Source: Peptococcaceae bacterium
Lineage (GTDB): Bacteria > Bacillota > Desulfotomaculia > Desulfotomaculales > Desulfocucumaceae
NCBI GenBank assembly: GCA_023512435.1
Contig: JAILZP010000011.1
Location: 31,630 to 55,629, forward strand
DNA: 24,000 nt
Direction of reading: 5' to 3'
The position numbers and the translations under genes are program-made. The notes beneath the pieces are model-generated. The model was not told where the DNA came from and made no database searches. It saw only the letters and a program-made list of their open reading frames with translations. Positions 6,329-20,268 of this stretch are shown piece after piece. The number at the start of each line of letters is the position of its first letter. Position 1 is the first letter of the stretch.

Positions 6329-6559
6329 ATTCCTTCCCCCTTAATACCCTTTAAGCCGTCCTTTCAACAACTTACTTTTCGTCATCCAAAATTCGTTCCG
6401 TCAGGAATTTTAGATTTCCCCCGGTGATGAACCGGGCAGGACAATCACATAGTTCAGGGCCTTTACGGCGTTGATAATGGTATATACCGCCATCAACCGG
6501 CAGGCCAGCCCGGCCAAGTCCCAGATTTTATCAAGGGCAACCCGTTTCTGATTGCTTCC

Positions 6560-7152
6560 GCAACCATGCGGCCCTGCGGTTCCAATCTACTGATGAAAAA
6601 ATTACAATTGAAAACATTATCACCCGGATGGAATAAAAAGTCAACCAAACGATATACTGCAAACCTGGATTATCTATTTTTCATTGCAATATTGATCCAA
6701 ATAGCTCAAATAAAAAATAAGCATGGAAGTTTCGTTATCATAATCATATTTACTTATACCTTGCTTAATAAATAATTCCAGCTGTAATTTATTGCTATTT
6801 GAGTAGACACTTCCTGTTTTTGTTTCAAAGAAATCGTCTTCTCGCCCGCCCACATGCACATAATCATTCTGGTAATATAAGATGCTTTTGTCATTTCTAA
6901 CAAGTTTATACACAACAAATTTTAATTTGTCTGCAGTTAATTTGAGTTGATTATTCCTTAAGCAATGAACAATATTATATGCAATATGCCGCAAAGTGGG
7001 GCCTACCAATTCTATTGCGGATGTTTCCATAAATCTAGGGATTACTTTATGCTTATACTTTATTATTAATGGATCTTGTCATCCCTGACCCAGCATTCCC
7101 CGGCGTGGTAAAGGCAGTTGACACTGGGCAGGAATATGAACTTAATATGAAC
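6560..7152. other. AT-rich segment, likely foreign or inserted DNA
   Basis: Hand counts: 6601-6660 is 20/60 G+C and 6661-6720 is 14/60. A flanking coding line (7801-7860) is 38/60. The right edge carries a tandem 11-bp duplication, AATATGAACTT x2 (7133-7154). Boundaries are approximate. Confidence 0.5.
6674..7030 (-). CDS. hypothetical protein (orphan ORF inside the AT-rich segment)
   Basis: 118-aa ORF with AT-rich codon usage. I saw no recognisable motif and no convincing Shine-Dalgarno upstream of the ATG. Confidence 0.35.
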   Translation of the reverse strand: METSAIELVGPTLRHIAYNIVHCLRNNQLKLTADKLKFVVYKLVRNDKSILYYQNDYVHVGGREDDFFETKTGSVYSNSNKLQLELFIKQGISKYDYDNETSMLIFYLSYLDQYCNEK

Positions 7153-7389
7153 TTATCGTAAGTTGCCTCCAAAAACCGCTTTATTAAACTCATCCGAAGT
7201 GACGTCAACAAATTTCACTTCAACTTTATCACCAAATTTTTCTTTAAACACAAGTCCCAGTTCCTCAGTTTCATCCTTCATAGTCTTTGCTGGGCCGCAT
7301 CCAGCGGCACCCGACCCGCAGCCTCACCCGCCGGACTGAACCGGTTCGTTCACACCAAATACTTTGACCGCAATTTTTTGCATTTCCAT
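7153..7389 (-). CDS. small Cys-rich ars-operon ORF with an in-frame TGA (candidate selenoprotein or pseudogene); ArsD/YuzD-like layout, probably 3'-truncated
   Basis: Not in the ORF track because TGA splits it. My translation: GGAGG-N8-ATG, then MEMQKIAVKVFGVNEPVQSGG[TGA]GCGSGAAGCGPAKTMKDETEELGLVFKEKFGDKVEVKFVDVTSDEFNKAVFGGNLR-stop. The TGA is at 7326-7324. The ORF starts 20 nt after the arsR stop on the same strand. A GC-rich hairpin follows the TGA (7288-7320). Confidence 0.4.
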
Positions 7390-7409
7390 CTTCACATCCT
7401 CCATTTGCG

Positions 7410-7844
7410 TTATTCGTTATCATGTAATGCGTTCAGGTTTTTTTGAGCCCCCGCAGGGAGTAATTTCCCCCTCAATTTGCAGTATGACATTTCGTCATTC
7501 TGCGCCGGTGATGCCGGAACACCCTTGTTTACCCTCTCTTCCACGATGCTTAAGACCAGTTCTTTATATCTGTTATGGTTCTCCACCATTTTATGGCCGA
7601 TAATGGAGTAGTACATCCACTTGCCTTTTTTCCTGTTGGATATCAGCCCGGCTTTTCTTAAAATACCGAGATGGTGCGAAACCGCCGGCTGGGACATGCC
7701 CAGCCGGTCCACCAGTTCGCAGACGCACATTTCATGATCCGTCAGCAAGCTGATTATTCTCATCCTGGTAACGTCCGACAGCGCGCTGAAGTAACCGCAC
7801 AATTCCCGCACGTCCCGCTTCCCGATCAGGCTGCCGCCGTTCAT
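7410..7844 (-). CDS. arsR: ArsR/SmtB-family metalloregulator with the CVC arsenite-sensing motif
   Basis: I place the start at MNGGS... (ATG 7844-7842), which overlaps the acr3 stop as ATGA. The HTH reads [35 protein letters not shown]. The longer track ORF (to 8099) runs antisense-frame through acr3 and is rejected. Confidence 0.85.
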
Positions 7845-8905
7845 CCCGCATCCCGCAATTCGTGGCTGAAGTATTTGCGTCTGAAATAAAGGGCCACGTT
7901 GACAAGGCTGATCAGCACCGGAACCTCCACCAGCGGGCCGATTACAGTGGCGAAGGCCTGGGCGGAGTGGATGCCGAAGACAGCCACAGCCACGGCGATG
8001 GCCAGCTCGAAGTCGTTGCTGGCGGCGGTGAAGGCAATGGTGGTGGTTTTTCCGTAGTCTGCCCCGATCCACTTTCCAAGGTAAAAGGTCACCAGCCACA
8101 TGAAAACAAAGTATATGGTCAGGGGAATGACAACCCTGATTACTTCGAGGGGCAGGGTGACAATCAGGTCGCCTTTAAGCGAGAACATTACCAGGATTGT
8201 AAACAGCAGGGCAATAAGCGTTATCTTGCTGATCCTGGGAATGAAATTCTTCTCGTACCATTCCCGGCCCCTGGATTTGACCAGCACCGCCCTGGTAATG
8301 TAGCCGGCAATGAAGGGAATACCCAGGTAAATGAACACGCTCTTGGCGATTTCGGCCATGGACACGTTGACCAAAACGCTTTTCAGGCCCAGCCAGGCCG
8401 GAATGACCGCAAGAAACACGTAGGCGTAAATGGAATATGTGAGCACCTGGAAGATGGCGTTGAAGGCCACCAGCCCGGTGACGTATTCCGGGTTTCCGCC
8501 GGCCAGGTCGTTCCACACCAGCACCATGGCGATGCAGCGGGCCAGGCCCACCAGGATGACCCCGGCCATTAAATCCGGCTTGTCCTGCAAAAGCAAAACG
8601 GCCAGGACGAACATGACGACGGGTCCCACAATCCAGTTTTGAACGAGCGACAGGGTTAAAAGCTTTTTATCCATGAAAACGGTGGGAAGTTCCTCGTAAC
8701 GCACCTTGGCCAGGGGGGGGTACATCATTAAAATAAGGCCGATGGCGATGGGTATATTTGTGGTGCCCACCTGAAATTTACCCCAGAAACCGGCGATCTG
8801 CGGGTATACATAACCTGCCCCCACTCCCACGGCCATGGCCAGGAAGATCCACAGGGTTAAATACCGGTCCAGGAATGAAAGTCTGCGTGTCACTGTTTGA
8901 GCCAT
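7841..8905 (-). CDS. acr3: ACR3-family arsenite efflux transporter
   Basis: 354-aa polytopic membrane protein. The N-terminus [25 protein letters not shown] and overall length are typical of Acr3. RBS is GGGAGG, 9 nt before the ATG. Confidence 0.9.
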
Positions 8906-9054: not shown

Positions 9055-9088
9055 ATAAAAAATGGGATGTTGCGTATCCCATTTTTTT
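9055..9088 (-). terminator. Rho-independent terminator after the thioredoxin-like gene
   Basis: Stem ATGGGAT (9062-9068) / ATCCCAT (9076-9082) with a 7-nt loop. It is flanked by A-run and T-run, so it is bidirectional in shape. It abuts the stop codon at 9087-9089. Confidence 0.6.
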
Positions 9089-9611
9089 ATTTTCCCATTT
9101 CCTCCCTTATCCACTTTGAAATCTCTTCCGGTTTGGGTACTTTACCTGTGGATTTAATCTTACCGTTTATAATCAGCCCCGGGGTCATCATCACACCCAG
9201 TTCCACGATTTTGCGCGGGTTTTCCACCTTTTCCACCGAAGCCTCCACTCCCATTTCTTCCAGGACCCTAAGCACTGCGCTCTCCAGGGTCTTGCAGTTT
9301 TTGCATCCCGGTCCCAAAACCTTGATCTCCATTCTTCTTTCCGACCCCCCAACACTTTCTTTTTTTATTTCCGAAATGTGCTTTTTATATTCCGCCAACA
9401 GGGCCTCGCCGTATTTATCCCTGGCGGAATCAGGGAAATAATTCCGCCTTCTGAACCTCGACAACAGTTCGGAGATGCGCCGGTCTTCAGTCAGGGGCTC
9501 CAGATCCGCAACCTCACGGATTACTTCGTCAAGCCCGAAGACCCCTATGTTATTGCCCCCGACACTGAACATTTTCGGTCTCGGTGAACGCGGCTCGCAG
9601 CAGCCGCCCAT
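9087..9611 (-). CDS. MTH895/ArsE-type thioredoxin-like protein with a roughly 95-aa N-terminal extension beginning MGGCC
   Basis: The C-terminal 80 aa, MEIKVLGPGCKNCKTLE...MTPGLIINGK, are a close paralog of the 80-aa ORF at 12934-13176 (CxxC in GPGCKNC). I place the start at ATG 9611-9609. The further-upstream track extension overlaps the CcdA remnant in another frame. Confidence 0.7.
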   Translation of the reverse strand: MGGCCEPRSPRPKMFSVGGNNIGVFGLDEVIREVADLEPLTEDRRISELLSRFRRRNYFPDSARDKYGEALLAEYKKHISEIKKESVGGSERRMEIKVLGPGCKNCKTLESAVLRVLEEMGVEASVEKVENPRKIVELGVMMTPGLIINGKIKSTGKVPKPEEISKWIREEMGK

Positions 9612-9645
9612 GATCCTCACGCCCCTTTCCAACTGATTTACCGAA

Positions 9646-9834
9646 TCAGGTATTCGTCCACAAAAACCACAGCCCCAGGACGATAAGCACCATCCCGCCA
9701 ATCTTTTGCAAAACCTCGCTCCAGTTTCCTATGACCTGAATGTTCTTTAAAAGCCCGGTGAAAGTCCCCGCCAGGAGCAGGGGAATGCTCCTGCCAATAG
9801 AGTACAGGAACAACAGCAAGAACCCGTAAATATT
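9646..9834 (-). pseudogene. C-terminal remnant (62 codons) of a CcdA/DsbD-family thiol-disulfide transmembrane protein
   Basis: My translation: NIYGFLLLFLYSIGRSIPLLLAGTFTGLLKNIQVIGNWSEVLQKIGGMVLIVLGLWFLWTNT-stop. This matches the last two TM helices of CcdA (LYSxGxxIPxLL ... GGxxLIxxG). There is no start codon. It begins in frame directly after the TAG of the upstream ArsR gene. Confidence 0.6.
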
Positions 9835-10215
9835 CTATGCAGGTTGCGAATCTGATTTTTGACCTGTTTTACAATTTATTATGCAACTGTCGTTTTCCAG
9901 CTTTTCCAATCTCGCACTCTCCTCTTTGAATTCCGGCAGCTGCCCGATGTCCACCCTGAGAAACTCCAGGAAATCGTTTAACGTTCTCTCCGTAATGTCC
10001 CCGTTTAACATATAGAAAGTTTTTTGAGCTTCCTTGGCTTCCCTGAGGATGGTGGCCTCCTTTAATACTTTGAGATGCTGCGAGATCCTGGGCTGGCTTA
10101 TTCCCAGCACCGACTCCAGTTCACAGACGTACATCGGCCTTACGGCCAGCAGCCTCAGTATTCTGAGGCGGGTCGGCTCACCCAGGGCCTTAAATATCTT
10201 GACAAACAGTTCCAT
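9835..10215 (-). CDS. ArsR/SmtB-family transcriptional regulator (second copy, single Cys in the sensing helix)
   Basis: 126 aa. Reads LGEPTRLRILRLLAVRPMYVCELESVLGISQPRISQHLKVLKEA. The C-terminal tail carries CxxxC (DSCIINC). Confidence 0.85.
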   Translation of the reverse strand: MELFVKIFKALGEPTRLRILRLLAVRPMYVCELESVLGISQPRISQHLKVLKEATILREAKEAQKTFYMLNGDITERTLNDFLEFLRVDIGQLPEFKEESARLEKLENDSCIINCKTGQKSDSQPA

Positions 10216-10284: not shown

Positions 10285-11265
10285 TTATTGCATAGCTTTT
10301 TCTCTCCGGAAAACACTTGGTGACCAGCGAAGTATCCAGGCCATTACCGGCATCTGGATGAGCGGATTGACGGCCAGCATAACCACCGTCAGGGGTGAAA
10401 AGAATTGGGAGGCCAGGCCGATGGCCAGCGAAATGTTTTTTCCGGTAACGCTGTATATCAGCGCTATTTCATCCTTCGCCGGTAATTTTGCCCTGCGGGC
10501 CAGCCAGACGGAAACGGCGAACTGCAAGATGTAAAAAACCAGGATCGCCGGGACGATTATGAATATGCTGTGCCAGATGGAGACAATCCTCGGGGCGCCC
10601 AGGGCCATCGAGATAAAGACAATCCCGAACATGCCCAGCATGGACAAAGGGGGCAATACCGGCCTGACGTTCATGAAGCCCTGTTCGCCCTTGGCTTTGA
10701 TGATCAGCCTCCTGGTTATGTCACCGGCAATCATGGGAATGAGGATTACCAGGATAGTCCCCTTGAACATGGCCAGGGCGTCAATTGAAATGAGGGAGTG
10801 GGCCAAGATCAGCATGCTCACCGGAATGGTCAGGATGCTCAGGGTAAGCGACAGGGCTACGATAACCAGGGCCAAGGCCACATTCCCCTTGGCAAACCCG
10901 GTCCACCCCGCCACCATGCCGGCGCAGGGGGTGACGCTCAAAAGAAGTAAAGCAGCAGCGAAGTCCGGGTGTCCCCGGAAGGCAGCCAGCGCCACCAGGA
11001 AGCCCATCAGCGGCGAGATGACAAAATTGAGCAACAACGACAGGGAGATGGGCCGCAGGTTTTTGGCCGCCTTGACCGTCTCCTCCACCCTGATGCCCAC
11101 CATCATGGGGAAGATCATCAAAAAAAGGGTAAAGTTTATATACTCCTTCAACCCCTTTGAAAATTCCGGGGCAAACCACCCCACGGCGGCTCCGGACAAA
11201 ATTGACAGCGCAATCAGGTAGATCATGTTTTTATCAAAAAACTTGGCTATCCCCTGCAGATTCAC
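10285..11265 (-). CDS. BASS/SBF-like (ACR3-related) membrane carrier
   Basis: 326-aa polytopic protein with the overall pattern of bile-acid:sodium-symporter-fold arsenical-resistance-type proteins. GTG start with AGGAGG 8 nt upstream. Confidence 0.7.
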   Translation of the reverse strand: MNLQGIAKFFDKNMIYLIALSILSGAAVGWFAPEFSKGLKEYINFTLFLMIFPMMVGIRVEETVKAAKNLRPISLSLLLNFVISPLMGFLVALAAFRGHPDFAAALLLLSVTPCAGMVAGWTGFAKGNVALALVIVALSLTLSILTIPVSMLILAHSLISIDALAMFKGTILVILIPMIAGDITRRLIIKAKGEQGFMNVRPVLPPLSMLGMFGIVFISMALGAPRIVSIWHSIFIIVPAILVFYILQFAVSVWLARRAKLPAKDEIALIYSVTGKNISLAIGLASQFFSPLTVVMLAVNPLIQMPVMAWILRWSPSVFRREKAMQ

Positions 11266-11336
11266 TCCCTCAACCTCCTGCGCGGTTTTTCATTAAGATA
11301 ACAACTTTACCGGCTGATTATCCTTAACAACCCGGC

Positions 11337-12380
11337 TTAACCTGCAATATATCCGAAGAACATGCCGGTGATGGTGGACAGGGCAACCACCAGCAGGACA
11401 TAGACCGATGTCTTCTTCACCCCCATCACCCGGCCGATGACAATCATATTGGGCAGGCTTAAGGAGGGTCCGGCCAACAGCAGCGCCAATGCCGGTCCCT
11501 TGCCCATGCCCATGTCCAGTAATGCCTTCACAATGGGCACTTCAGTCAGGGTGGAGAAGTACATCAGGGCGCCAAAAACCGATGCCACGGCGTTGGACGC
11601 AAGGCTGTTTCCGCCCACCGCGGCTTCCACCCATTGCTGCGGGATGACCGCCTTAAGCATCCCGGCCACAAATACACCGATCAATAACACCGGGAAAATC
11701 ATTTTTACAAACTTCCAGGTCTCCCTCAGCCAGTCCACGACCTCATCCTTGCTGTACCAGAAAGCCAGAACCAGAACCATTGAATTTAACAGAGTAATCA
11801 GGATGGCAATCTTGGACCACAGGGGAATACCGGCGGTCCCGAAGAGGAGTATGGCCACCAGCACTCCGAAGAAGGCCAGCAACTGGATCACCGGCTTGCC
11901 TTCCCCGCCGGCGAACATGCTCTCGTCTTCTTCCTTGAATTTTTCCTCTTTCCTGAAGATAAGCGCCATCAACAGGCCTATTATTATGGAAAAGCTAATG
12001 GCCCCCACGGCCCGGGCCAGGCCAAGCTCCCAGCCCATTTTGCGGGCGGTGAGCACTATGGCCAGTATGTTGATGGCCGGGCCGGAAAACAGGAAAGTGA
12101 CCGCCGGACCAAGGCCGGCGCCTTTTTTATGAATACCGGCAAACAGGGGCAATATAGTACATGAACACACCGCCAGGATGGCCCCTGAAACCGAAGCAAC
12201 GCCATAGGCCGTGGTTTTTTTGGCCCTGGGGCCGAAATATTTGATCACGGCCCCGGTGGAAACCACCGCCGCTATCCCGCCGGCGATGAAAAAGGCGGGC
12301 ACCAGGCACGTCAGCACGTGGGCCGACAAATACTCCAGAAGTTCATTCACACCGCTCATCAAGATGTTTGTAATGATCAT
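11337..12380 (-). CDS. DUF318/COG0701 permease (ArsP-like)
   Basis: Polytopic. It has a Cys pair in a TM helix (AVCSCTILPLF) as in ArsP-type permeases. I prefer the ATG at 12380 (GGAGG 9 nt upstream) over the track's TTG at 12389, which abuts the RBS. Confidence 0.75.
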   Translation of the reverse strand: MIITNILMSGVNELLEYLSAHVLTCLVPAFFIAGGIAAVVSTGAVIKYFGPRAKKTTAYGVASVSGAILAVCSCTILPLFAGIHKKGAGLGPAVTFLFSGPAINILAIVLTARKMGWELGLARAVGAISFSIIIGLLMALIFRKEEKFKEEDESMFAGGEGKPVIQLLAFFGVLVAILLFGTAGIPLWSKIAILITLLNSMVLVLAFWYSKDEVVDWLRETWKFVKMIFPVLLIGVFVAGMLKAVIPQQWVEAAVGGNSLASNAVASVFGALMYFSTLTEVPIVKALLDMGMGKGPALALLLAGPSLSLPNMIVIGRVMGVKKTSVYVLLVVALSTITGMFFGYIAG

Positions 12381-12414
12381 TGTTTCCAACCTCCGATAAT
12401 ATATTAGATATTTA

Positions 12415-12427
12415 TTATATAATAATA
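12415..12427. promoter_or_regulatory. 13-mer TTATATAATAATA upstream of the permease gene (shared with 10239-10251)
   Basis: Exact repeat of the arsR-2 upstream 13-mer. It is followed by a near copy, TTATATATAAATA, 3 nt later. It lies 35 nt upstream of the ATG at 12380. Confidence 0.4.
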
Positions 12428-12463
12428 CCGTTATATATAAATATCAACCCTCATTTTTTGAAG

Positions 12464-12499
12464 CCAAAAAATTGCCACCGGATTTTTTAATCCGGCGGC
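12464..12499 (-). terminator. Rho-independent terminator ending the cysteine desulfurase-to-DGC operon
   Basis: Minus-strand RNA: GCCGCCGGAUU-AAAA-AAUCCGGUGGC, then AAUUUUUUGG. The single imperfect position is a G-U pair on the minus transcript but an A-C mismatch on the plus transcript. This supports minus-strand function. Confidence 0.65.
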
Positions 12500-12524
12500 A
12501 GAAGATAATTATACTCCCACAAGT

Positions 12525-12899
12525 CTACCTTCCCAGCTGCCTGCGGATATCGGAACATACCATATTTATATCTTCCGGCAGCAGGTTGAAGTCGTGATTT
12601 TTCTTAATTCCCAGATCTGTGGCAACCACATGGTCGGTCACGTTGAAACCGGCGTGTTCCAGCGTCTTTTTGGCGCAGCAGGCCTGGCAGCCGTCTATGG
12701 CCACAATGCGCCTGGCCGCTTTGGCCGACTCAATAAAGCTGTCCAGATGCCCGCCGATTCCGGCCAGGCAGTACAGCTTGCCCACCCCGGCCCTGGTCAG
12801 ATCCACCCCGGCCTGGTTCGCTATCTGCCCGACGTTGGATCCTCCGGAGCAGGGAAAAATCAAAATTTCAGTGGCTTCGCAGGTGCATGTATTAGACAT
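12525..12899 (-). CDS. DGC-domain putative zinc-binding protein
   Basis: 124 aa, Cys-rich (CTC, FPCSGG, YCLAG, IDGCQACCAKK including the DGC signature). RBS is AAGGAG, 7 nt before the ATG. Confidence 0.75.
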   Translation of the reverse strand: MSNTCTCEATEILIFPCSGGSNVGQIANQAGVDLTRAGVGKLYCLAGIGGHLDSFIESAKAARRIVAIDGCQACCAKKTLEHAGFNVTDHVVATDLGIKKNHDFNLLPEDINMVCSDIRRQLGR

Positions 12900-15818: not shown

Positions 15819-16295
15819 TTGTTCAATGTAATCTTATTTACACTGACTTTAGCCGCACTTATCTATTCATTCATAAAAGACCGGCAGAAGACACGGCAAG
15901 CACTAAAAATTGCCTATAACTCCTTCCGCAATATACTTCCCAGTATGCTTGGCATCATCGGTCTAATCGGGTTAATGCTGGCTTTGGTACCCAAGGAGAC
16001 TATTGAGGGGTTATTTGGTAACAACAGTCCGGCCGGTATATTGATCATTTCTGCTGTGGGCTCGGTGACGCTTATACCCGCCTTTATCGCTTTTCCCCTG
16101 GCGGCTTCACTACTTCAGGCAGGGGCAAGTATAATGGCGGTTTCGATCTTCATTACCACCCTGCTGATGGTCGGGGTACTTACTGCTCCTATGGAGATTC
16201 AATACTTCGGTAAAAAGTTTACCATCCTGCGGAATGTCTTCAGCCTGGCGGCGGCCCTCGGGATAGCTGTTATTATGGGGGTGGCGCTGCAGTGA
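15819..16295 (+). CDS. permease half-protein (COG0701/DUF318-like, part 1)
   Basis: 158-aa polytopic protein with a TTG start. It overlaps the next ORF by 4 nt (GTGA), which implies translational coupling. Confidence 0.65.
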   Translation: MFNVILFTLTLAALIYSFIKDRQKTRQALKIAYNSFRNILPSMLGIIGLIGLMLALVPKETIEGLFGNNSPAGILIISAVGSVTLIPAFIAFPLAASLLQAGASIMAVSIFITTLLMVGVLTAPMEIQYFGKKFTILRNVFSLAAALGIAVIMGVALQ

Positions 16296-16822
16296 AAGAG
16301 CATTTGAAAAAGTACTCTCTTTTTATGTTAATTGTAGTTATTGACTTGATACTCCGCTGGCGGGTGCCCACTGCGGGGAGCACCGCCGTCAGCAGCTCTA
16401 TTGACTACCTTGTGGAAATGCTCCTATTTATCCCCCCTGTCTTTGTCCTGGTGGGGCTTTTGGACGTCTGGGTACCGAGAAAAATTGTGGAAAAGCACGT
16501 CGGCCCTGATTCAGGCGCCAAGGGAGTGGTCATATCAATTCTGGTGGCCACCGCCGCGGCTGGACCGCTTTACGCAGGGTTCCCGGTAGCTGATGCCCTG
16601 CTTAAAAAGGGCTGCCGCCTGGCCAACGCCGTTATCTTTCTTGGAACGTGGGCAACTATAAAGATTCCCATGCTGATGATGGAGATAAAATTCATGGGCC
16701 CGTCCTTTGCCCTTACCCGTCTTATCCTTACAGTACCGGCAGTAATCATTATTGGTTACCTGGTTGAAAAGATTGTTGGAAGCGGGAAAAGACTTAAGCA
16801 AGGTAAAATGAAGCGGTGTTGA
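16292..16822 (+). CDS. permease half-protein (COG0701/DUF318-like, part 2)
   Basis: 176-aa polytopic protein. The segment GPLYAGFPVADALLKKG resembles the GxPxYxxxxxxxPxxxxLxxKG block also seen in the permease fragment at 18238-18543. Confidence 0.65.
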   Translation: MKEHLKKYSLFMLIVVIDLILRWRVPTAGSTAVSSSIDYLVEMLLFIPPVFVLVGLLDVWVPRKIVEKHVGPDSGAKGVVISILVATAAAGPLYAGFPVADALLKKGCRLANAVIFLGTWATIKIPMLMMEIKFMGPSFALTRLILTVPAVIIIGYLVEKIVGSGKRLKQGKMKRC

Positions 16823-16838
16823 TAAATAATCTTGAAGG

Positions 16839-17063
16839 CTATTTCTGGTGTTTTGCGATGATGGCCGCCCCTTTTTTAATATAGTTACAGGGTATGAACG
16901 TGAATGCCAAGTTCTTTTGCCACTGCTGACGCCGGACGCTTTTGTTCAAGCACAATACGGATCGCTTCTTCTTTAAAATGCTTGTCAAATCTCTTAATGA
17001 TGAACACCCCCTGGCTTTATTGTACCAGCCATTCCTCGTGTCCATCAAATCGGGTTATGGTCA
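16839..17063 (-). mobile_element. remnant of an IS3-family insertion sequence (left end plus frameshifted, truncated orfA HTH)
   Basis: My minus-strand translation: ...KRFDKHFKEEAIRIVLEQKRPASAVAKELGIHVHTL-stop. It continues in another frame as CNYIKKGAAI.... This is the classic IS3 OrfA HTH (LGIxxxTLxNWxKK) broken by a frameshift. The putative terminal repeat TGACCATAACCCGATTTGATGGACACG starts at 17063 and resembles IS3/IS150-type ends (TG...TGGAC) from memory. Confidence 0.5.
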
Positions 17064-17122
17064 ATGTCTGCCTGGCCACCATGGAAAATATTGCGTTTCT
17101 TAGATGTCTATGACGGATATCG

Positions 17123-17431
17123 CTATAACAATGCCTTAATTTTTATCTTTCCCTTTTGGGCTAAACGGCTAATAAAGAAAATCACGCTACCCTCGTTAAT
17201 TTTTAACTTTTCGGCAATATCACTGGTCTGGACTTCACCCTTACTTTTAATTAAAGTTAAAATTTCTTTTTCGACCTCTTCCACCCAATCTTCAAATAAG
17301 GCCCGCACTTCCGGCGTCGCGTAGCTTCCCATTTCTGCCGCCTTAGCTACTGATTCAGTCATATATTTGCACATTTCCATGGGGTTCATCCCACCCATCA
17401 TGCCGCCCATCATACCCATTTGTTCTTTCAT
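17123..17431 (-). CDS. small protein with a Met-rich N-terminus and a C-terminal winged-helix-like domain
   Basis: 102 aa. MKEQMGMMGGMMGGMNPMEMCKYM..., then ...ILTLIKSKGEVQTSDIAEKLKINEGSVIFFISRLAQKGKIKIK. Strong RBS AAGGAGGG 7 nt before the ATG. It lies 45 nt downstream of the third ArsR-family gene. Confidence 0.6.
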   Translation of the reverse strand: MKEQMGMMGGMMGGMNPMEMCKYMTESVAKAAEMGSYATPEVRALFEDWVEEVEKEILTLIKSKGEVQTSDIAEKLKINEGSVIFFISRLAQKGKIKIKALL

Positions 17432-17476
17432 TGTTATGCCCTCCTTGGTTTATTTCTTAAATCTTTTCGTATTCTT

Positions 17477-17791
17477 TTAATTTCCTCGTTTAATTCCATT
17501 ATCCCGGTTTTCTTTAATTGTGTACCTTTTAAATTCACCAAATAAATCCAACAAATCTGCCTTGTCTAACTGGTAGTAAATAAACGCCCCTTGTCGTTCG
17601 GCCTTTACAATACCCGCATCTCTTAAAGCTCTTAAATGAAAGGAAACAAGGGTTTGGGAAAGGCTTGTGGTTTCGATAATCTCAGATACAGAACGTTCAC
17701 CTTTGCCAATAGCAAGTAAAATCCTAAGGCGATTGGCATCTCCCAGAATTTTGAATAATTTAGCTAGCTGTTCTACCATCGAAAACATCAT
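17477..17791 (-). CDS. ArsR/SmtB-family transcriptional regulator (third copy, no Cys in the HTH region)
   Basis: LAKLFKILGDANRLRILLAIGKGERSVSEIIETTSLSQTLVSFHLRALRDAGIV. The start is ambiguous (ATG 17791, 17788 or 17779). The track's GTG 17806 lies within the AGAGGTG RBS. Confidence 0.8.
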   Translation of the reverse strand: MMFSMVEQLAKLFKILGDANRLRILLAIGKGERSVSEIIETTSLSQTLVSFHLRALRDAGIVKAERQGAFIYYQLDKADLLDLFGEFKRYTIKENRDNGIKRGN

Positions 17792-17846
17792 CCAAAAACA
17801 GAGCACCTCTTATAACTGATGTTAACCTATCTTAATATTAGCCTTC

Positions 17847-17871
17847 GCTCATATTAGTCTGTGCTCATATT
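17847..17871. promoter_or_regulatory. direct repeat GCTCATATT x2 upstream of the third arsR-family gene (candidate operator)
   Basis: GCTCATATT at 17847-17855 and 17863-17871 (16-nt phase). A TAATATTA palindrome lies nearby. It is 56-80 nt upstream of the start. Confidence 0.3.
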
Positions 17872-17964
17872 CTATTCACTTTCCGATTTATTGTCAAGAC
17901 CTGATTAAAATAGTTCAAAAAAATATTGCGTTCCGCCCAACGGGCGTTATTTGAAAGGGAGGCG

Positions 17965-18171
17965 TCATTTCTGCCCGTCCAGTTCAGACCTTCTGATCAG
18001 GTAGTGCTGTTCAGGGGACAAGGGCATCCCGTCTTCAACAATAGTTTTACTGAAGAAGTGGCAATCCCACTGTTCAACTTCATTCTTTGGCACTGTTCTG
18101 CCGGTCAGAAAACACCTTGTTCCAATTGCATCCGGCACGGCAAGTCCGCAATCCGAACAATTGCCCATCAT
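17965..18171 (-). CDS. hypothetical Cys-rich small protein (68 aa)
   Basis: MMGNCSDCGLAVPDAIGTRCFLTGRTVPKNEVEQWDCHFF... has CxxC plus two further Cys. RBS is GGGAG, 5 nt before the ATG. A weak hairpin (CGCCC-GTT-GGGCG) and a T-run lie downstream. Confidence 0.5.
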   Translation of the reverse strand: MMGNCSDCGLAVPDAIGTRCFLTGRTVPKNEVEQWDCHFFSKTIVEDGMPLSPEQHYLIRRSELDGQK

Positions 18172-18237
18172 ATCATCTCCCGTTTTTATGGCCTATTATT
18201 CCATATTTATGATACATCCTCCAGTCAAGTCCGCTTC

Positions 18238-18543
18238 GTACCGGAAGAACTGGTGGTTAAAATCGCAGGGACGGGTAATCCCTTCGCTATTCCGGTGGCT
18301 GCCCTGATCGGTGTGCCCATGTATATCCGTGCGGAAACCATAATCCCCATCAGCGCAGTACTCCTGGATAAAGGAATGAGCATGGGCGCCGTAATGGCCC
18401 TGGTAATTGGCGGAGCGGGCGCCAGTATCCCGGAAACAATTATCCTGGCCTCCATTTTCCGTCGTGAACTGGTGATATCCTTTATCCTTGCCGTACTGGC
18501 GGTGGCTATTCTGGCCGGTTATTTCTTTGATTTAGTACTGTAA
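18238..18543 (+). pseudogene. 3' fragment (about 101 codons) of a DUF318/COG0701 permease
   Basis: VPEELVVKIAGTGNPFAIPVAALIGVPMYIRAETIIPISAVLLDKGMSMGAVMALVIGGAGASIPE... is the C-terminal third of this permease family. The upstream part of the 205-aa track ORF is non-membrane, lacks similarity, and overlaps the 68-aa gene antisense. Confidence 0.6.
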
Positions 18544-19173: not shown

Positions 19174-19248
19174 TGGTGCGCCCGGCAGGAATCGAACCTG
19201 CGCTCCCGGCTCCGGAGGCCGGCGCTCTATCCCCTGAGCTACGGGCCT
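19174..19248 (-). tRNA. tRNA-Arg (anticodon CCG), with the top two acceptor base pairs mismatched
   Basis: Hand-folded minus strand: AGGCCCG-TA-GCTC-AGGGGATA-GAGC-G-CCGGC-CTCCGGA-GCCGG-GAGC-GCAGG-TTCGATT-CCTGC-CGGGCGC-A-CCA. The D, anticodon and T arms are perfect. The acceptor pairs at 3-70 to 7-66 only (A1/C72 and G2/G71 clash). A canonical 5' end would be GCGCCCG. Confidence 0.75.
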
Positions 19249-19308: not shown

Positions 19309-20268
19309 GTGGTGTTGGAAATGGGCCGCAGGCTCATGAAAGTCACTCCTAAAACAGACCGTCCTTGGGATGATTGCTTGAAGGAATTCCTTTTGGTGAA
19401 AGAAGCGGGTGGCCAAGCCCCGCGCACCTTGGCCGACTATCGTTATCACGTCAACCTATTCTTTAAACATCACCCTGAAGCATGGGCTAATTATAACGCG
19501 CTTCGGCAAGCAGTGCTTGAATACTTTGCCATAAGCGCAAAACTTTCTCCCACAACATACAACCTCCGGCGCAAATACCTGAAAGGTTTCTTCGCCTGGG
19601 CCGTATCGGAAGGGATTATCCCGGCCAACCCCATCGATGGGTTGAAGGCCCGTAAGACGGAGGGCCGCATCCGGCATGTCCCGGAGGATGTCCTGCAAAA
19701 GCTCCTGGAACTGCCTAACCGCTCCACTTATGCCGGACTAAGAGATTATGCCCTGCTGCTCCTGTCCCTGGATACCGGCATACGCCCCGGCGAGGCTCTA
19801 GGGCTGCTACCGGGAGACATAAATCTGCCCAGCCTGGAAGTTCGTGTCCGGGCCGATATAGCGAAAACCCGGACAAGCCGCACCTTGCCAATCAGCCAGG
19901 AAACGGCGGCGGCCATCCGAAAACTGTTCTCCGTCCGGCCCGAAGAATGGGGGAATGCCCCTGTTTTCTGCTCTGACAAAGGTAAGCCTCTAAAGGAAAA
20001 CGGCTGGCGGCAACGGCTGGACAAGTATAAAAAAAGGCTGGGTCAGGACATAAGCCCGTATGACCTGCGCCATGCCTTTGCACTTCTATACCTGCGCGGA
20101 GGTGGGGATGCTTTCCATCTCCAGCGGATGATGGGACATTCTGACATGGAAATGACAAAGCACTACCTCGAATTCACCAAGGCCGACCTGAGAGAAACAC
20201 ATTCCCAGGCCAGCCCACTGAACCGGCTCCTGCCAAAAACGCATAGAGCTAGAAAGATAAAAACCTAA
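19309..20268 (+). CDS. int: tyrosine-type site-specific integrase
   Basis: 319 aa. Carries an N-terminal SAM-like core-binding region (TLADYRYHVNLFF), a catalytic domain with LLLLSLDTGIRPGEAL (Arg I), and PYDLRHAFALLYLRGGGDAFHLQRMMGHSDMEMTKHY (HxxR ... H ... Y). The start is ambiguous (GTG 19309, ATG 19318 or ATG 19336). Confidence 0.9.
   Translation: MVLEMGRRLMKVTPKTDRPWDDCLKEFLLVKEAGGQAPRTLADYRYHVNLFFKHHPEAWANYNALRQAVLEYFAISAKLSPTTYNLRRKYLKGFFAWAVSEGIIPANPIDGLKARKTEGRIRHVPEDVLQKLLELPNRSTYAGLRDYALLLLSLDTGIRPGEALGLLPGDINLPSLEVRVRADIAKTRTSRTLPISQETAAAIRKLFSVRPEEWGNAPVFCSDKGKPLKENGWRQRLDKYKKRLGQDISPYDLRHAFALLYLRGGGDAFHLQRMMGHSDMEMTKHYLEFTKADLRETHSQASPLNRLLPKTHRARKIKT

What the first reader, a model, noticed from the sequence alone, without database searches (positions are those of the whole stretch)
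7153..7389. In-frame UGA in the Cys-rich loop of an ars-operon ORF, followed by a SECIS-like hairpin: candidate selenocysteine-containing metalloid-binding protein
- **Operon context:** a well-initiated ORF (GGAGG-N8-ATG) starts 20 nt after the arsR stop. It reads MEMQKIAVKVFGVNEPVQSGG-UGA-GCGSGAAGCGPAKTMKDETEELGLVFKEKFGDKVEVKFVDVTSDEF....
- **Position of the UGA:** the TGA (7326-7324) sits inside a Gly/Cys loop (U-G-C-x6-C-G-P). The frame stays open and protein-like for 56 more codons, which is unusual for a random nonsense mutation.
- **Architecture:** a short beta strand, a Cys loop ending CGP, a helix, then an xVEVKFVDV strand. This is the layout of ArsD-type (VFDPAMCCSTGVCGP...) or YuzD-type thioredoxin-fold metallochaperones. 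The similarity is architectural only.
- **Hairpin:** the RNA after the UGA can fold. U4-A36, G5-C35 and C6-G34 pair, A33 bulges, then GGGUCG pairs with CGGCCC (one G-U). The 14-nt apical loop starts GGU and spans 7288-7320. This resembles bacterial SECIS geometry.
- **Significance:** a Sec residue in an As(III)-type binding site would be new, as far as I know.
- **Caveat:** the gene also looks 3'-truncated by the AT-rich insert, so it may be a decaying pseudogene.
Basis: partly seen in the sequence, partly recalled or inferred. Interest (0 to 1): 0.7.

Follow-up and report, generated by a model that had tools for sequence, protein, structure and literature searches.

The report
Broken copy of new selenoprotein gene
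The in-frame UGA is a real selenocysteine codon, with its own insertion hairpin, in a small arsenic-operon protein family that no selenoprotein catalogue lists, but the copy in this window has lost its last third to a deletion and is almost certainly a dead gene.

Summary
On the minus strand, ATG 7389 is followed by an in-frame TGA at 7326-7324 and 56 more open codons to TAA 7155-7153.

The UGA is not a random nonsense mutation. The same column carries TGA in 49 distinct DNA versions of the gene (Peptococcaceae, Desulfotruncus, Desulfoscipio, Syntrophomonadaceae and metagenomes). Other homologues carry Cys there.

A hairpin starts 16 nt after the UGA (5-bp stem, 5-nt loop; window 7308-7294). 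It is supported by compensatory changes and meets the published bacterial SECIS (bSECIS) model. All five pairs form in 44 of 49 Sec forms but in only 1 of 7 Cys forms.

The intact protein is about 113 aa and has a thioredoxin fold. It is distantly related to DUF1462/YuzD and ArsD. It recurs in operons with ArsR, ACR3, ArsP-type permeases and MTH895/ArsE thioredoxins. It matches no NCBIfam model and none of the 119 families in a 2026 catalogue.

The window copy is a relic. A deletion of about 190 bp removed codons 69 onward and fused the gene out of frame to a fragment of the next gene (gcvH-like). That fragment is itself frameshifted and cut off. Metalloid binding is plausible but unproven.

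The parts
7398..7402 (-). Shine-Dalgarno GGAGG, 8 nt upstream of the ATG
   Evidence: Read directly from the sequence.
7153..7389 (-). Only codons 1-68 are homologous to the family. The last 10 codons (NKAVFGGNLR) are an out-of-frame reading of the next gene's remnant.
7186..7389 (-). Retained 5' two-thirds (residues 1-68 of about 113) of the ArsD/YuzD-like Sec/Cys thioredoxin-fold gene
   Evidence: tblastn with the L013 protein matches residues 1-68 (72% identity, E = 8e-22), and nothing in the window matches residues 69-120. The window is collinear with L020 at 76% nucleotide identity across ACR3-ArsR-gene.
7324..7326 (-). UGA, the selenocysteine codon of the family. This is the family's only invariant Cys/Sec column.
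   Evidence: TGA occupies this column in 49 distinct DNA versions, and Cys in L007, L028, L037, L079-L082 and many database proteins.
7294..7308 (-). bSECIS-type hairpin core: GCCGC (7308-7304), loop UGGAU (7303-7299), GCGGC (7298-7294). It can extend to 7311-7292 by two G-C pairs across a 1-nt bulge. The loop starts 20 nt after the UGA.
   Evidence: The fold gives -13.1 kcal/mol, z = -2.36. RNAalifold finds the same 5 pairs in 47 sequences, 3 of them with compensatory changes. Covariation is 0.497 against 0.175 shuffled (0 of 500) and 0.08-0.17 for slid controls. All 5 pairs form in 44/49 Sec forms against 1/7 Cys forms. The hairpin meets all four constraints of the bSECIS model quoted in PMC13188914.
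7176..7181 (-). Deletion junction. About 190 bp present in relatives is missing here: the last ~46 codons of the gene, the spacer, and the first codons of the next gene.
   Evidence: Window 7402..7181 aligns with L013 5880..6101 and window 7176..7078 with L013 6291..6378. Window ..7190 aligns with L020 ..1536 and window 7143..7078 with L020 1754..1819.
7078..7176 (-). 5' remnant (about residues 4-34) of the downstream GcvH-like gene
   Evidence: tblastn with the L013/L020 downstream protein gives 77% identity, E = 3e-10. The full L020 protein matches PF01597 GCV_H at E = 9e-31. Residues 35-128 are absent from the window.
7133..7154 (-). Exact 11-bp tandem duplication (AAGTTCATATT, two copies) that frameshifts the GcvH-like remnant.
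   Evidence: Repeat D6 in the repeat finder. Removing one copy restores KRFLEATYDKFIFLPSVNCLYHAGECWVRDD, which matches the relatives.
6400..7077 (.). AT-rich block (37% G+C against 53% in the operon) where homology to related loci ends. It holds one 118-aa ORF (6674-7030, minus strand) with no family.
7410..7844 (-). arsR (144 aa). Its ATG overlaps the ACR3 stop (ATGA). It lies immediately upstream of the finding.
   Evidence: PF01022 HTH_5 at E = 4e-19. Coordinates. The order ACR3-ArsR-gene is the same in L020.
7841..8905 (-). ACR3 arsenite efflux transporter, first gene of the ACR3-ArsR-gene block
   Evidence: TIGR00832 acr3 equivalog, 452 bits against a cut-off of 283.

Best explanation
Window 7389-7153 (minus strand) is the decayed 5' two-thirds of a gene from a small Sec/Cys thioredoxin-fold protein family. 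The intact protein is about 113 aa and is distantly related to ArsD and to DUF1462/YuzD.

In intact members the UGA is decoded as selenocysteine. A 5-bp/5-nt-loop hairpin starting 16 nt downstream, inside the coding sequence, has the geometry of a bacterial SECIS element. It would recruit SelB with Sec-tRNA(Sec); that step is inferred from established knowledge of bacterial Sec insertion.

The Sec sits in a flexible Gly/Cys loop between strand 1 and helix 1 (U-G-C-x6-C-G-P). This is the place where ArsD carries its As(III)-binding cysteines.

The gene recurs co-directionally with ArsR, ACR3, ArsP-type permeases and MTH895/ArsE thioredoxins. Its most likely job is therefore to bind or hand over a thiophilic metalloid such as As(III), or to do the associated thiol/selenol redox chemistry (inferred).

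In this window the gene is no longer intact. A deletion of about 190 bp removed codons 69-113, including the nearly invariant LPLTVINGxPRFHGG segment. It fused the rest out of frame to a fragment of the next gene (gcvH-like). That fragment carries an 11-bp duplication and is cut off by AT-rich DNA. The UGA and the hairpin are preserved fossils in a pseudogene.
For: Sec codon:
- TGA is in the same column in 49 distinct DNA versions, with conserved protein sequence on both sides.
- Cys occupies that column in other members, and it is the only invariant Cys/Sec column.
- Public gene calls of Sec forms are either cut to 75-87 aa, starting at the Met after the UGA, or read the TGA as Trp.
- TGA is a normal stop elsewhere in the window.

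SECIS:
- Two methods find the same hairpin, with compensatory changes in 3 of 5 pairs. The wobble base of the Cys codon covaries with the first base of an Ala/Thr codon.
- All four bSECIS model constraints are met: 5-nt loop, 5-bp stem, G at loop position 2, 20-nt spacing, -13.1 kcal/mol.
- The hairpin is kept in 44/49 Sec forms and 1/7 Cys forms.
- Sec-type selD lies next to the gene in one subgroup, so those hosts decode Sec.

Fold and relatives:
- AlphaFold2 gives pLDDT 80.7 with a b-a-b-a-b-b-a topology and a disordered loop at residues 19-28.
- Foldseek finds thioredoxins, 1xg8 and ArsD 3mwh/3kgk.
- The family profile matches 1xg8 at E = 2e-4.
- hhalign against an ArsD gives 91% probability, E = 1e-6.
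- 27 of 55 members touch DUF1462.

Context:
- L013-17, L020, L028, L031-34, L037, L042, L080 and L082 place the gene with ArsR/ACR3.
- L044, L051 and L053-75 place it with ArsP_1 permease and Trx3.

Decay in the window.
Against: - No experiment shows Se in any member.
- The source genome of the window could not be identified. Its selA/B/C/D genes, and a possible intact paralogue, are therefore unknown.
- The hairpin overlaps conserved codons (xGCGP/CCP), so part of its conservation is protein-driven. The Sec and Cys sets are not phylogenetically independent, and there are only seven Cys DNA examples.
- Loops such as AUGUU and UUGUU in some members put the G at position 3, outside the strict bSECIS rule.
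- For function: some members have no ars neighbours (D. arcticus). One subgroup sits beside selD/TusA-DsrE and yabP-yqfD. The number of loop cysteines varies from 1 to 4. ArsD itself is not found by plain sequence search.
Confidence: 0.8

Rival explanations
1. The family is a thiol/selenol oxidoreductase rather than a metalloid chaperone. The conserved C-G-P Cys at the N-terminus of helix 1 (compare thioredoxin W-C-G-P-C) and the loop Sec form a selenenylsulfide. This would relay reducing equivalents within the CcdA/DsbD, Trx2 and MTH895-thioredoxin modules that surround it, or to an arsenate reductase.
For: - Thioredoxin fold.
- The best sequence relative is the putative disulfide oxidoreductase family DUF1462/YuzD.
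- Neighbours are very often thioredoxin-like proteins and DsbD/CcdA.
- Most catalogued bacterial selenoproteins are redox proteins (PMC13188914).
Against: - There is no CxxC/UxxC. The spacing between Sec and the conserved Cys is 7-9 residues across a disordered loop.
- The tightest and most widespread linkage is to ArsR and metalloid exporters.
- The loop aligns with ArsD's metalloid-binding cysteines.
Confidence: 0.3
2. The family handles selenium rather than arsenic. It would be a selenide/perselenide carrier serving SelD, or selenium detoxification through the adjacent permeases.
For: In about 12 loci the gene lies divergently next to a Sec-type selD and a TusA/DsrE fusion protein. The Gly-rich G-G-U-G-C loop recalls the Gly-rich Sec/Cys loop of SelD; this resemblance is from memory and is a lead only.
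Against: - That context is limited to one subgroup (motif G-U-G-P-x-x-S-A-G-C-G), where the gene is co-directional with the sporulation genes yabP-yqfD, not with selD.
- The other subgroups, including the window type, sit in ArsR/ACR3 or ArsP operons. One sits in a full arsC-arsD-arsA-arsR-gene-acr3 operon.
Confidence: 0.12
3. The window copy is still a working gene that makes a shortened 78-residue selenoprotein.
For: The start codon, Shine-Dalgarno sequence, UGA, hairpin and an open frame to a TAA are all intact. The retained part is 72% identical to relatives.
Against: - It lacks strands 3-4, the last helix and the nearly invariant LPLTVINGxPRFHGG segment of the thioredoxin fold.
- Its last 10 residues come from another gene read out of frame.
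- The neighbouring gene is frameshifted and truncated.
- A second deletion of about 1.1 kb hit the same operon.
Confidence: 0.06
4. The UGA is a plain stop: either a nonsense mutation, or the end of a 21-codon leader with the rest translated from the internal Met. The hairpin is then a by-product of G+C-rich Gly/Cys codons.
For: Gene callers split the gene at this point. The wider region folds no better than shuffles.
Against: - The same TGA persists across sequences down to 42% identity, with conserved residues on both sides, including the 14 residues between the TGA and the first Met.
- Cys forms are single ORFs.
- The hairpin covaries at synonymous sites and is lost in Cys forms.
Confidence: 0.02

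Closest known systems
ArsD arsenic metallochaperone (PF06953; PDB 3mwh, 3kgk)
   Same: - Small thioredoxin-fold protein without a CxxC.
- The cysteines sit on the loop between strand 1 and helix 1 and end in V/G-C-G-P.
- A ...LPL(L/T)V(L/I)(D/N)G... strand follows later in the sequence.
- It is encoded in ars operons.
- hhalign of the family profile against an ArsD gives 91% probability, E = 1e-6, with the family's C-G on ArsD's C18-G.
- Foldseek TM-scores normalised to the target are 0.61-0.65, rmsd 3.3-3.5 A.
   Different: - It is not found by the Pfam or NCBIfam ArsD models.
- It uses Sec or Cys at an extra, invariant position upstream.
- Most loci have no ArsA partner. In L082 a canonical ArsD-ArsA pair sits beside it, so it is not simply an ArsD substitute.
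- As(III) binding is untested.
DUF1462 / YuzD, putative disulfide oxidoreductase (PF07315; PDB 1xg8, S. aureus SA0798)
   Same: - It is the best relative by sequence: the family profile matches 1xg8 at E = 2e-4 over residues 30-115.
- 27 of 55 members touch PF07315 at E <= 0.01.
- Some public records name Cys forms 'disulfide oxidoreductase YuzD' or 'UCP010603'.
- Same size and fold.
   Different: - Most members, including the window copy, score below Pfam's threshold.
- YuzD has a CxxC, and only its second Cys aligns with the family's C-G-P Cys.
- No YuzD selenoprotein is reported in the library searched.
- The host clade and operon context differ: anaerobic Desulfotomaculia and Syntrophomonadaceae, in ArsR/ACR3 operons.
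Thioredoxin_3 'Sec.1/Sec.2' selenoproteins of Brachyspira (PF13192; PMC5330540)
   Same: Small thioredoxin-like proteins with a Cys/Sec residue in a short N-terminal stretch (U-x-C or C-x-U) and a bSECIS after the TGA. NCBI annotation also missed or truncated them. Members of the same PF13192/MTH895-ArsE family flank our gene in many loci.
   Different: It is a different family. Only 1 of 55 of our members touches PF13192, weakly at E = 0.003.
Catalogued metal(loid)-related bacterial selenoproteins (Sec-ArsM, Sec arsenate reductases, SaoB/SaoC/SaoT, MbdU; PMC13188914 Table 1)
   Same: Sec in proteins of arsenic or mercury handling, with Sec proposed as a metal ligand. All were found by the same comparative logic.
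   Different: None of the 119 listed families is DUF1462-, YuzD- or ArsD-like. None of their NCBIfam models matches this family. The best NCBIfam hit is VcpD, at about 17 bits against a cut-off of 90.

Membership tests
Bacterial selenoprotein gene (UGA-Sec with in-ORF bSECIS) | In-frame UGA with conserved coding sequence on both sides across homologues | tested here: met
   49 distinct DNA versions carry TGA 36 or 39 nt before the K-T-M codons, at identities down to 42%.
Bacterial selenoprotein gene (UGA-Sec with in-ORF bSECIS) | Cys-containing homologues with Cys aligned to the UGA | tested here: met
   It is the only invariant Cys/Sec column in A1 and A2. Cys forms include L007, L028, L037, L079-L082 and 73 of the 120 listed proteins.
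Bacterial selenoprotein gene (UGA-Sec with in-ORF bSECIS) | Stem-loop just downstream that fits the bSECIS model: 3-9 nt loop, 4-16 bp stem, G in the first two loop positions, 16-37 nt from the UGA, MFE <= -7.5 kcal/mol | tested here: met
   In the window the loop is UGGAU, the stem is 5 bp (plus 2), the spacing is 20 nt and the energy is -13.1 kcal/mol. The model is as quoted in PMC13188914. A minority of relatives have the G at loop position 3.
Bacterial selenoprotein gene (UGA-Sec with in-ORF bSECIS) | The structure is under selection: compensatory changes, and loss when Sec is replaced by Cys | tested here: met
   3 of 5 core pairs covary. The covariation score is 0.497 against 0.175 shuffled (0/500) and 0.08-0.17 for slid controls. 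All 5 pairs form in 44/49 Sec forms against 1/7 Cys forms.
Bacterial selenoprotein gene (UGA-Sec with in-ORF bSECIS) | selA, selB, selC and selD in the same genome | not testable with these tools
   The source genome was not found in any collection. The only tRNA in the window is tRNA-Arg. In relatives, a Sec-type selD lies next to the gene.
Bacterial selenoprotein gene (UGA-Sec with in-ORF bSECIS) | Complete reading frame in this window | tested here: not met
   Only residues 1-68 of about 113 are present. There is a deletion of about 190 bp and an out-of-frame fusion to the next gene's remnant.
Bacterial selenoprotein gene (UGA-Sec with in-ORF bSECIS) | Selenium actually incorporated (75Se labelling or mass spectrometry) | not testable with these tools
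   This needs an experiment on an intact orthologue.
DUF1462 / YuzD (PF07315) | Match to the Pfam model above its gathering score | tested here: inconclusive
   The window copy has no hit. 27 of 55 members hit at E <= 0.01, best 1e-5. Two have a precomputed PF07315 hit. The family profile matches 1xg8 at E = 2e-4.
DUF1462 / YuzD (PF07315) | CxxC motif before helix 1 | tested here: not met
   The family has U/C-x-C...C-G-P. Only the last Cys aligns, with the second Cys of C-A-S-C in 1xg8.
ArsD (PF06953) | Match to the ArsD family model | tested here: not met
   There is no PF06953 or ArsD NCBIfam hit for any member. Only a profile-profile link exists, at 91% probability.
ArsD (PF06953) | Three-thiol As(III) site on the strand 1-helix 1 loop (Cys12, Cys13, Cys18 in R773 ArsD; established knowledge) | tested here: inconclusive
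   The window type has U22, C24 and C31 in the equivalent loop, and the C-G aligns with ArsD C18-G. The ligand count varies between subgroups, from U plus 1 Cys to U plus 3. Binding was not tested.
ArsD (PF06953) | Works with an ArsA ATPase encoded alongside | tested here: not met
   ArsA was seen only in L082, where a canonical ArsD is also present. ArsA was not among the neighbour queries, which recovered ACR3, ArsP-type permeases and thioredoxins next to the gene.
Any catalogued prokaryotic selenoprotein family (119 in PMC13188914 Table 1; NCBIfam 20.0) | Match to the family's model, or listing under a DUF1462/YuzD/ArsD-like name | tested here: not met
   The table has no such entry. No NCBIfam model comes near its cut-off. 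GenBank and RefSeq records of Sec forms are 77-80-aa 'hypothetical proteins'.

The most novel reading that the evidence does not exclude
Intact members of this family are selenol-based metalloid chaperones, an ArsD-like protein that uses a Sec-Cys-Cys loop. They would capture As(III) or Sb(III) through an As-Se bond and pass it to ACR3 or ArsP-type exporters. Those exporters have no known chaperone, so this would be the first Sec-dependent step in arsenite efflux.
Probability: 0.3. Interest if true: 0.7.

Novelty: new member of a known kind. Interest (0 to 1): 0.5.

Why it matters
- The finding adds a selenoprotein family to the bacterial list. Current annotation splits or truncates it: cultured Desulfotruncus and Desulfoscipio genomes carry it as 77-80-aa hypothetical proteins.
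- The family comes with a compact SECIS that is supported by covariation and could seed a search model.
- It ties selenium use to arsenic-resistance operons of anaerobic Firmicutes. It points to a possible chaperone or redox partner for ACR3 and ArsP-type exporters, which is testable in cultured strains.
- For this window specifically, the locus is a decaying operon. The UGA-containing ORF should be annotated as a selenoprotein pseudogene, neither as two small ORFs nor as a functional gene.

Tried and rejected
- The word-index protein search with the 78-aa window product found nothing. The family only appeared after DNA-level locus scans and a profile search.
- An exact look-up of the window's ACR3, tried to identify the source genome, found nothing on record. 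The window itself was in neither the genome nor the metagenome scans, so selABCD could not be checked.
- Alignment A2 (both subfamilies) was too diverse for a locus scan. The narrower A3 worked.
- Pfam and NCBIfam on the window copy and on full-length members gave no family above threshold.
- Rfam gave no match in 6900-7600.
- A whole-region fold z-score is uninformative here (-0.04 and -0.39).
- I searched the window for the missing C-terminus and for the rest of the gcvH-like gene. Both are absent.
- Literature searches for YuzD/DUF1462 with selenoprotein, selenocysteine with ACR3/ArsD, and VcpD returned nothing relevant. Haft & Tolstoy 2025 is not held.
- I considered that the Brachyspira 'Sec.1/Sec.2' thioredoxin-like family might be the same thing. 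It is PF13192, a different family.
Full report
**1. The observation**

On the minus strand the sequence reads GGAGG (7402-7398), 8 nt, ATG (7389). The ATG is 20 nt after the arsR stop. The ORF continues MEMQKIAVKVFGVNEPVQSGG, TGA (7326-7324), GCGSGAAGCGPAKTMKDETEELGLVFKEKFGDKVEVKFVDVTSDEFNKAVFGGNLR, TAA (7155-7153). TGA is an ordinary stop for 5 of 22 family-supported ORFs in the window, including the ACR3 gene just upstream, so there is no global reassignment of the codon.

**2. Is the UGA meaningful?**

The window product alone matched nothing: Pfam, NCBIfam and the word-index search were all empty. DNA-level scans did find relatives.
- Seven loci came from species-representative genomes: Peptococcaceae MAGs, Desulfotruncus arcticus and D. 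alcoholivorax, Syntrophomonadaceae, and a Peptostreptococcaceae MAG.
- Sixty-two more came from metagenomes.

In 49 distinct DNA versions an in-frame TGA occupies exactly this column, 36 or 39 nt upstream of the conserved K-T-M codons. Protein sequence is conserved on both sides, at identities down to about 42%. Other members have Cys there: L007, L028, L037 and L079-L082. In protein alignments this is the only invariant Cys/Sec column.

A profile search found 245 proteins in two length classes.
- Full-length proteins of 105-125 aa have either Cys or 'W' at that column. The 'W' comes from gene callers reading TGA as Trp.
- Fragments of 75-87 aa start at the Met after the TGA.

An exhaustive HMMER search gave 353 cluster representatives at E <= 1e-3. 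Among the best 150, about 40 look like Sec forms and 86 like Cys forms. This is the classical comparative signature of a selenoprotein family.

**3. The hairpin**

His helix is not conserved: 43.6% of cells pair against 44.5% shuffled, and covariation is 0.116 against 0.122.

I anchored 47 Sec-type sequences on the K-T-M codons. This reveals a smaller hairpin inside his 14-nt loop, with a 5-bp core and a 5-nt loop. In the window it is GCCGC (7308-7304), UGGAU (7303-7299), GCGGC (7298-7294).
- RNAalifold predicts the same five pairs. Three of them show compensatory changes (GC, AU, UA, GU).
- For the helix I named, the covariation score is 0.497 against 0.175 +/- 0.022 in shuffles (0 of 500) and 0.08-0.17 in slid controls.
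- One covarying pair links the wobble base of the Cys codon (TGC/TGT) to the first base of an Ala/Thr codon. Protein constraint alone does not explain that.
- The window hairpin is stable: -13.1 kcal/mol, z = -2.36.
- It meets all four constraints of the published bSECIS model: loop 3-9 nt, stem 4-16 bp, G in the first two loop positions, 16-37 nt from the UGA, and MFE <= -7.5 kcal/mol (PMC13188914).
- All five core pairs form in 44 of 49 Sec forms but only 1 of 7 Cys forms.

Two caveats apply. The sequences are related to one another, and a minority of loops (AUGUU, UUGUU) carry the G at position 3.

**4. What the protein is**

Intact members are about 113 aa and end ...KNYPxIxxILxxVRLPLTVINGxPRFHGGL.... 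AlphaFold2 on a 55-sequence alignment gives pLDDT 80.7 and a thioredoxin-like b-a-b-a-b-b-a topology. The Sec/Cys loop (residues 19-28) is disordered.

The nearest relatives are as follows.
- Foldseek finds thioredoxins, 1xg8 (DUF1462, S. aureus SA0798) and ArsD (3mwh, 3kgk).
- The family profile hits 1xg8 by sequence at E = 2e-4.
- 27 of 55 members touch DUF1462 at E <= 0.01.
- hhalign against a bona fide ArsD from locus L082 gives 91% probability, E = 1e-6. It places the family's C-G on ArsD's C18-G.

No NCBIfam model comes near its cut-off; the best is VcpD at about 17 bits against 90. The family is a member of neither by the curated thresholds.

**5. Context**

Neighbour mapping across about 80 loci shows three recurring, co-directional arrangements.
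- (a) ArsR-(Trx2-CcdA-small Cys protein)-ACR3-(ArsR)-GENE-GcvH-like. This includes L020, which has exactly the window's order ACR3-ArsR-GENE. It also includes L082, with arsC-arsD-arsA-arsR-GENE-acr3.
- (b) ArsR-ArsP_1 permease-MTH895/ArsE thioredoxin-(DGC)-GENE-thioredoxin-CcdA.
- (c) GENE between a divergent Sec-type selD (motif PG-U-AxK) with TusA/DsrE, and yabP-yqfD.

The window's ACR3 is a clear equivalog: 452 bits against a cut-off of 283. The link to ArsR-regulated metalloid export is therefore conserved across lineages, not a peculiarity of this window.

**6. The window copy is a relic**

tblastn finds only residues 1-68 (7389-7186). Residues 69-113 are nowhere in the window.

DNA alignment shows the window is collinear with L020 from ACR3 through ArsR into the gene, at 76% identity. 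It then jumps: window 7181/7176 corresponds to L013 6101/6291. About 190 bp are missing. The missing stretch holds the last ~46 codons, the spacer and the first codons of the next gene.

What follows (7176-7078) is the 5' end of the GcvH-like gene. It is frameshifted by an exact 11-bp tandem duplication at 7154-7133. It ends at 7078, where a 37%-GC block begins.

The same operon has a second deletion of about 1.1 kb that removed Trx2 and the first 160 residues of CcdA. His own refutation criterion, several disruptions in this copy, is met. The UGA and SECIS here are fossils.

**7. Mechanism**

Shown:
- a Sec/Cys column;
- a covarying SECIS-type hairpin;
- a thioredoxin fold;
- ars-type synteny;
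- truncation of the window copy.

Inferred:
- SelB/tRNA(Sec)-dependent decoding at the hairpin, from established bacterial Sec biology;
- a role for the U-x-C...C-G-P loop as a three-ligand site for As(III)-type metalloids, by analogy with ArsD Cys12/13/18 and operon context, at about 0.45;
- alternatively, a selenenylsulfide redox centre, at about 0.3;
- a selenium-handling role, suggested by the selD-adjacent subgroup, at about 0.12.

**8. Novelty**

The 2026 catalogue of 119 prokaryotic selenoprotein families (PMC13188914, Table 1) lists no DUF1462-, YuzD- or ArsD-like family. The superficially similar 'Sec.1/Sec.2' thioredoxin-like family of Brachyspira is PF13192, a different family. GenBank and RefSeq annotate the Sec forms as truncated hypothetical proteins.

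Sec in arsenic-related proteins as such is not new: Sec-ArsM and Sec arsenate reductases are listed there.

**Verdict.** This is a new member (family) of a known kind, thioredoxin-fold bacterial selenoproteins with an in-ORF SECIS. It is seen here as a pseudogene. The interest is moderate.

Noticed in passing
window 7078-7176 (minus), duplication 7133-7154: This is the 5' remnant of a GcvH-like gene, the gene that follows the selenoprotein gene in L013, L017, L020 and L022. An exact 11-bp tandem duplication (AAGTTCATATT, two copies) frameshifts it, and it is cut off at 7078. Why a GcvH-like protein is a conserved partner in these ArsR/ACR3 operons is unexplained.
   Followed up: yes
window 9830-9886 (junction); CcdA fragment 9649-9828 (minus): This is a second deletion in the same operon. 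Compared with L013, about 1.09 kb is missing, covering the Trx2 gene and the first 160 residues of CcdA/DsbD. Only CcdA residues 161-220 remain, so the whole operon looks to be decaying.
   Followed up: partly
window 9420-9611 (minus), within ORF 9087-9701; L013 4279-4482: This is a small domain that starts with vicinal cysteines (GCC[D/E]P...MF.(I/V)GGN.IGV..LDEVIREV...). It is conserved between CcdA and ACR3 in related loci and has no Pfam or NCBIfam model. Here it lies in one ORF with an MTH895/ArsE-family thioredoxin (9087-9332).
   Followed up: partly
window 6400-7077: This AT-rich block (37% G+C against about 53% in the flanks) lies between the gcvH-like remnant and the sigma-54 activator gene. 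It has one 118-aa ORF (6674-7030, minus strand) with no family match. No terminal repeats were found that would mark a mobile element.
   Followed up: partly
window 19174-19248 and 19309-20268: tRNA-Arg(CCG) lies directly beside a tyrosine recombinase (phage-integrase family), which is the usual mark of a genomic-island boundary.
   Followed up: no
window 10285-12899 and 15819-18543: The window holds further metalloid-type modules:
- a second ACR3-like SBF transporter (10285-11265);
- an ArsP_1/SaoE-like permease (11337-12389);
- a DGC-domain protein (12525-12899);
- another ArsR (17477-17806);
- ArsP_1-type permease pieces split over three ORFs (15819-16295, 16292-16822, 17926-18543).
   Followed up: partly
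L008 4585-5560 (minus); also L023, L025, L036: selD genes next to the family gene carry an in-frame TGA (motif ...PG-U-A[A/S]K...). In the one locus with gene calls (L008) it was called as a 304-aa fragment that starts after the TGA. This is another selenoprotein gene truncated in public gene calls.
   Followed up: partly
L082 4001-4351: This is a Cys form embedded in a full arsC-arsD-arsA-arsR-GENE-acr3 operon. It still has all five pairs of the hairpin, which may reflect a recent Sec-to-Cys replacement. A 'CC_Se_fam' protein is encoded at the start of the same cluster.
   Followed up: no
L006 3911-4628: One Syntrophomonas contig carries two tandem copies of the family gene, a Sec form (GGG-U-SCSGC) followed by a Cys form (GGCNCSGC).
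   Followed up: no
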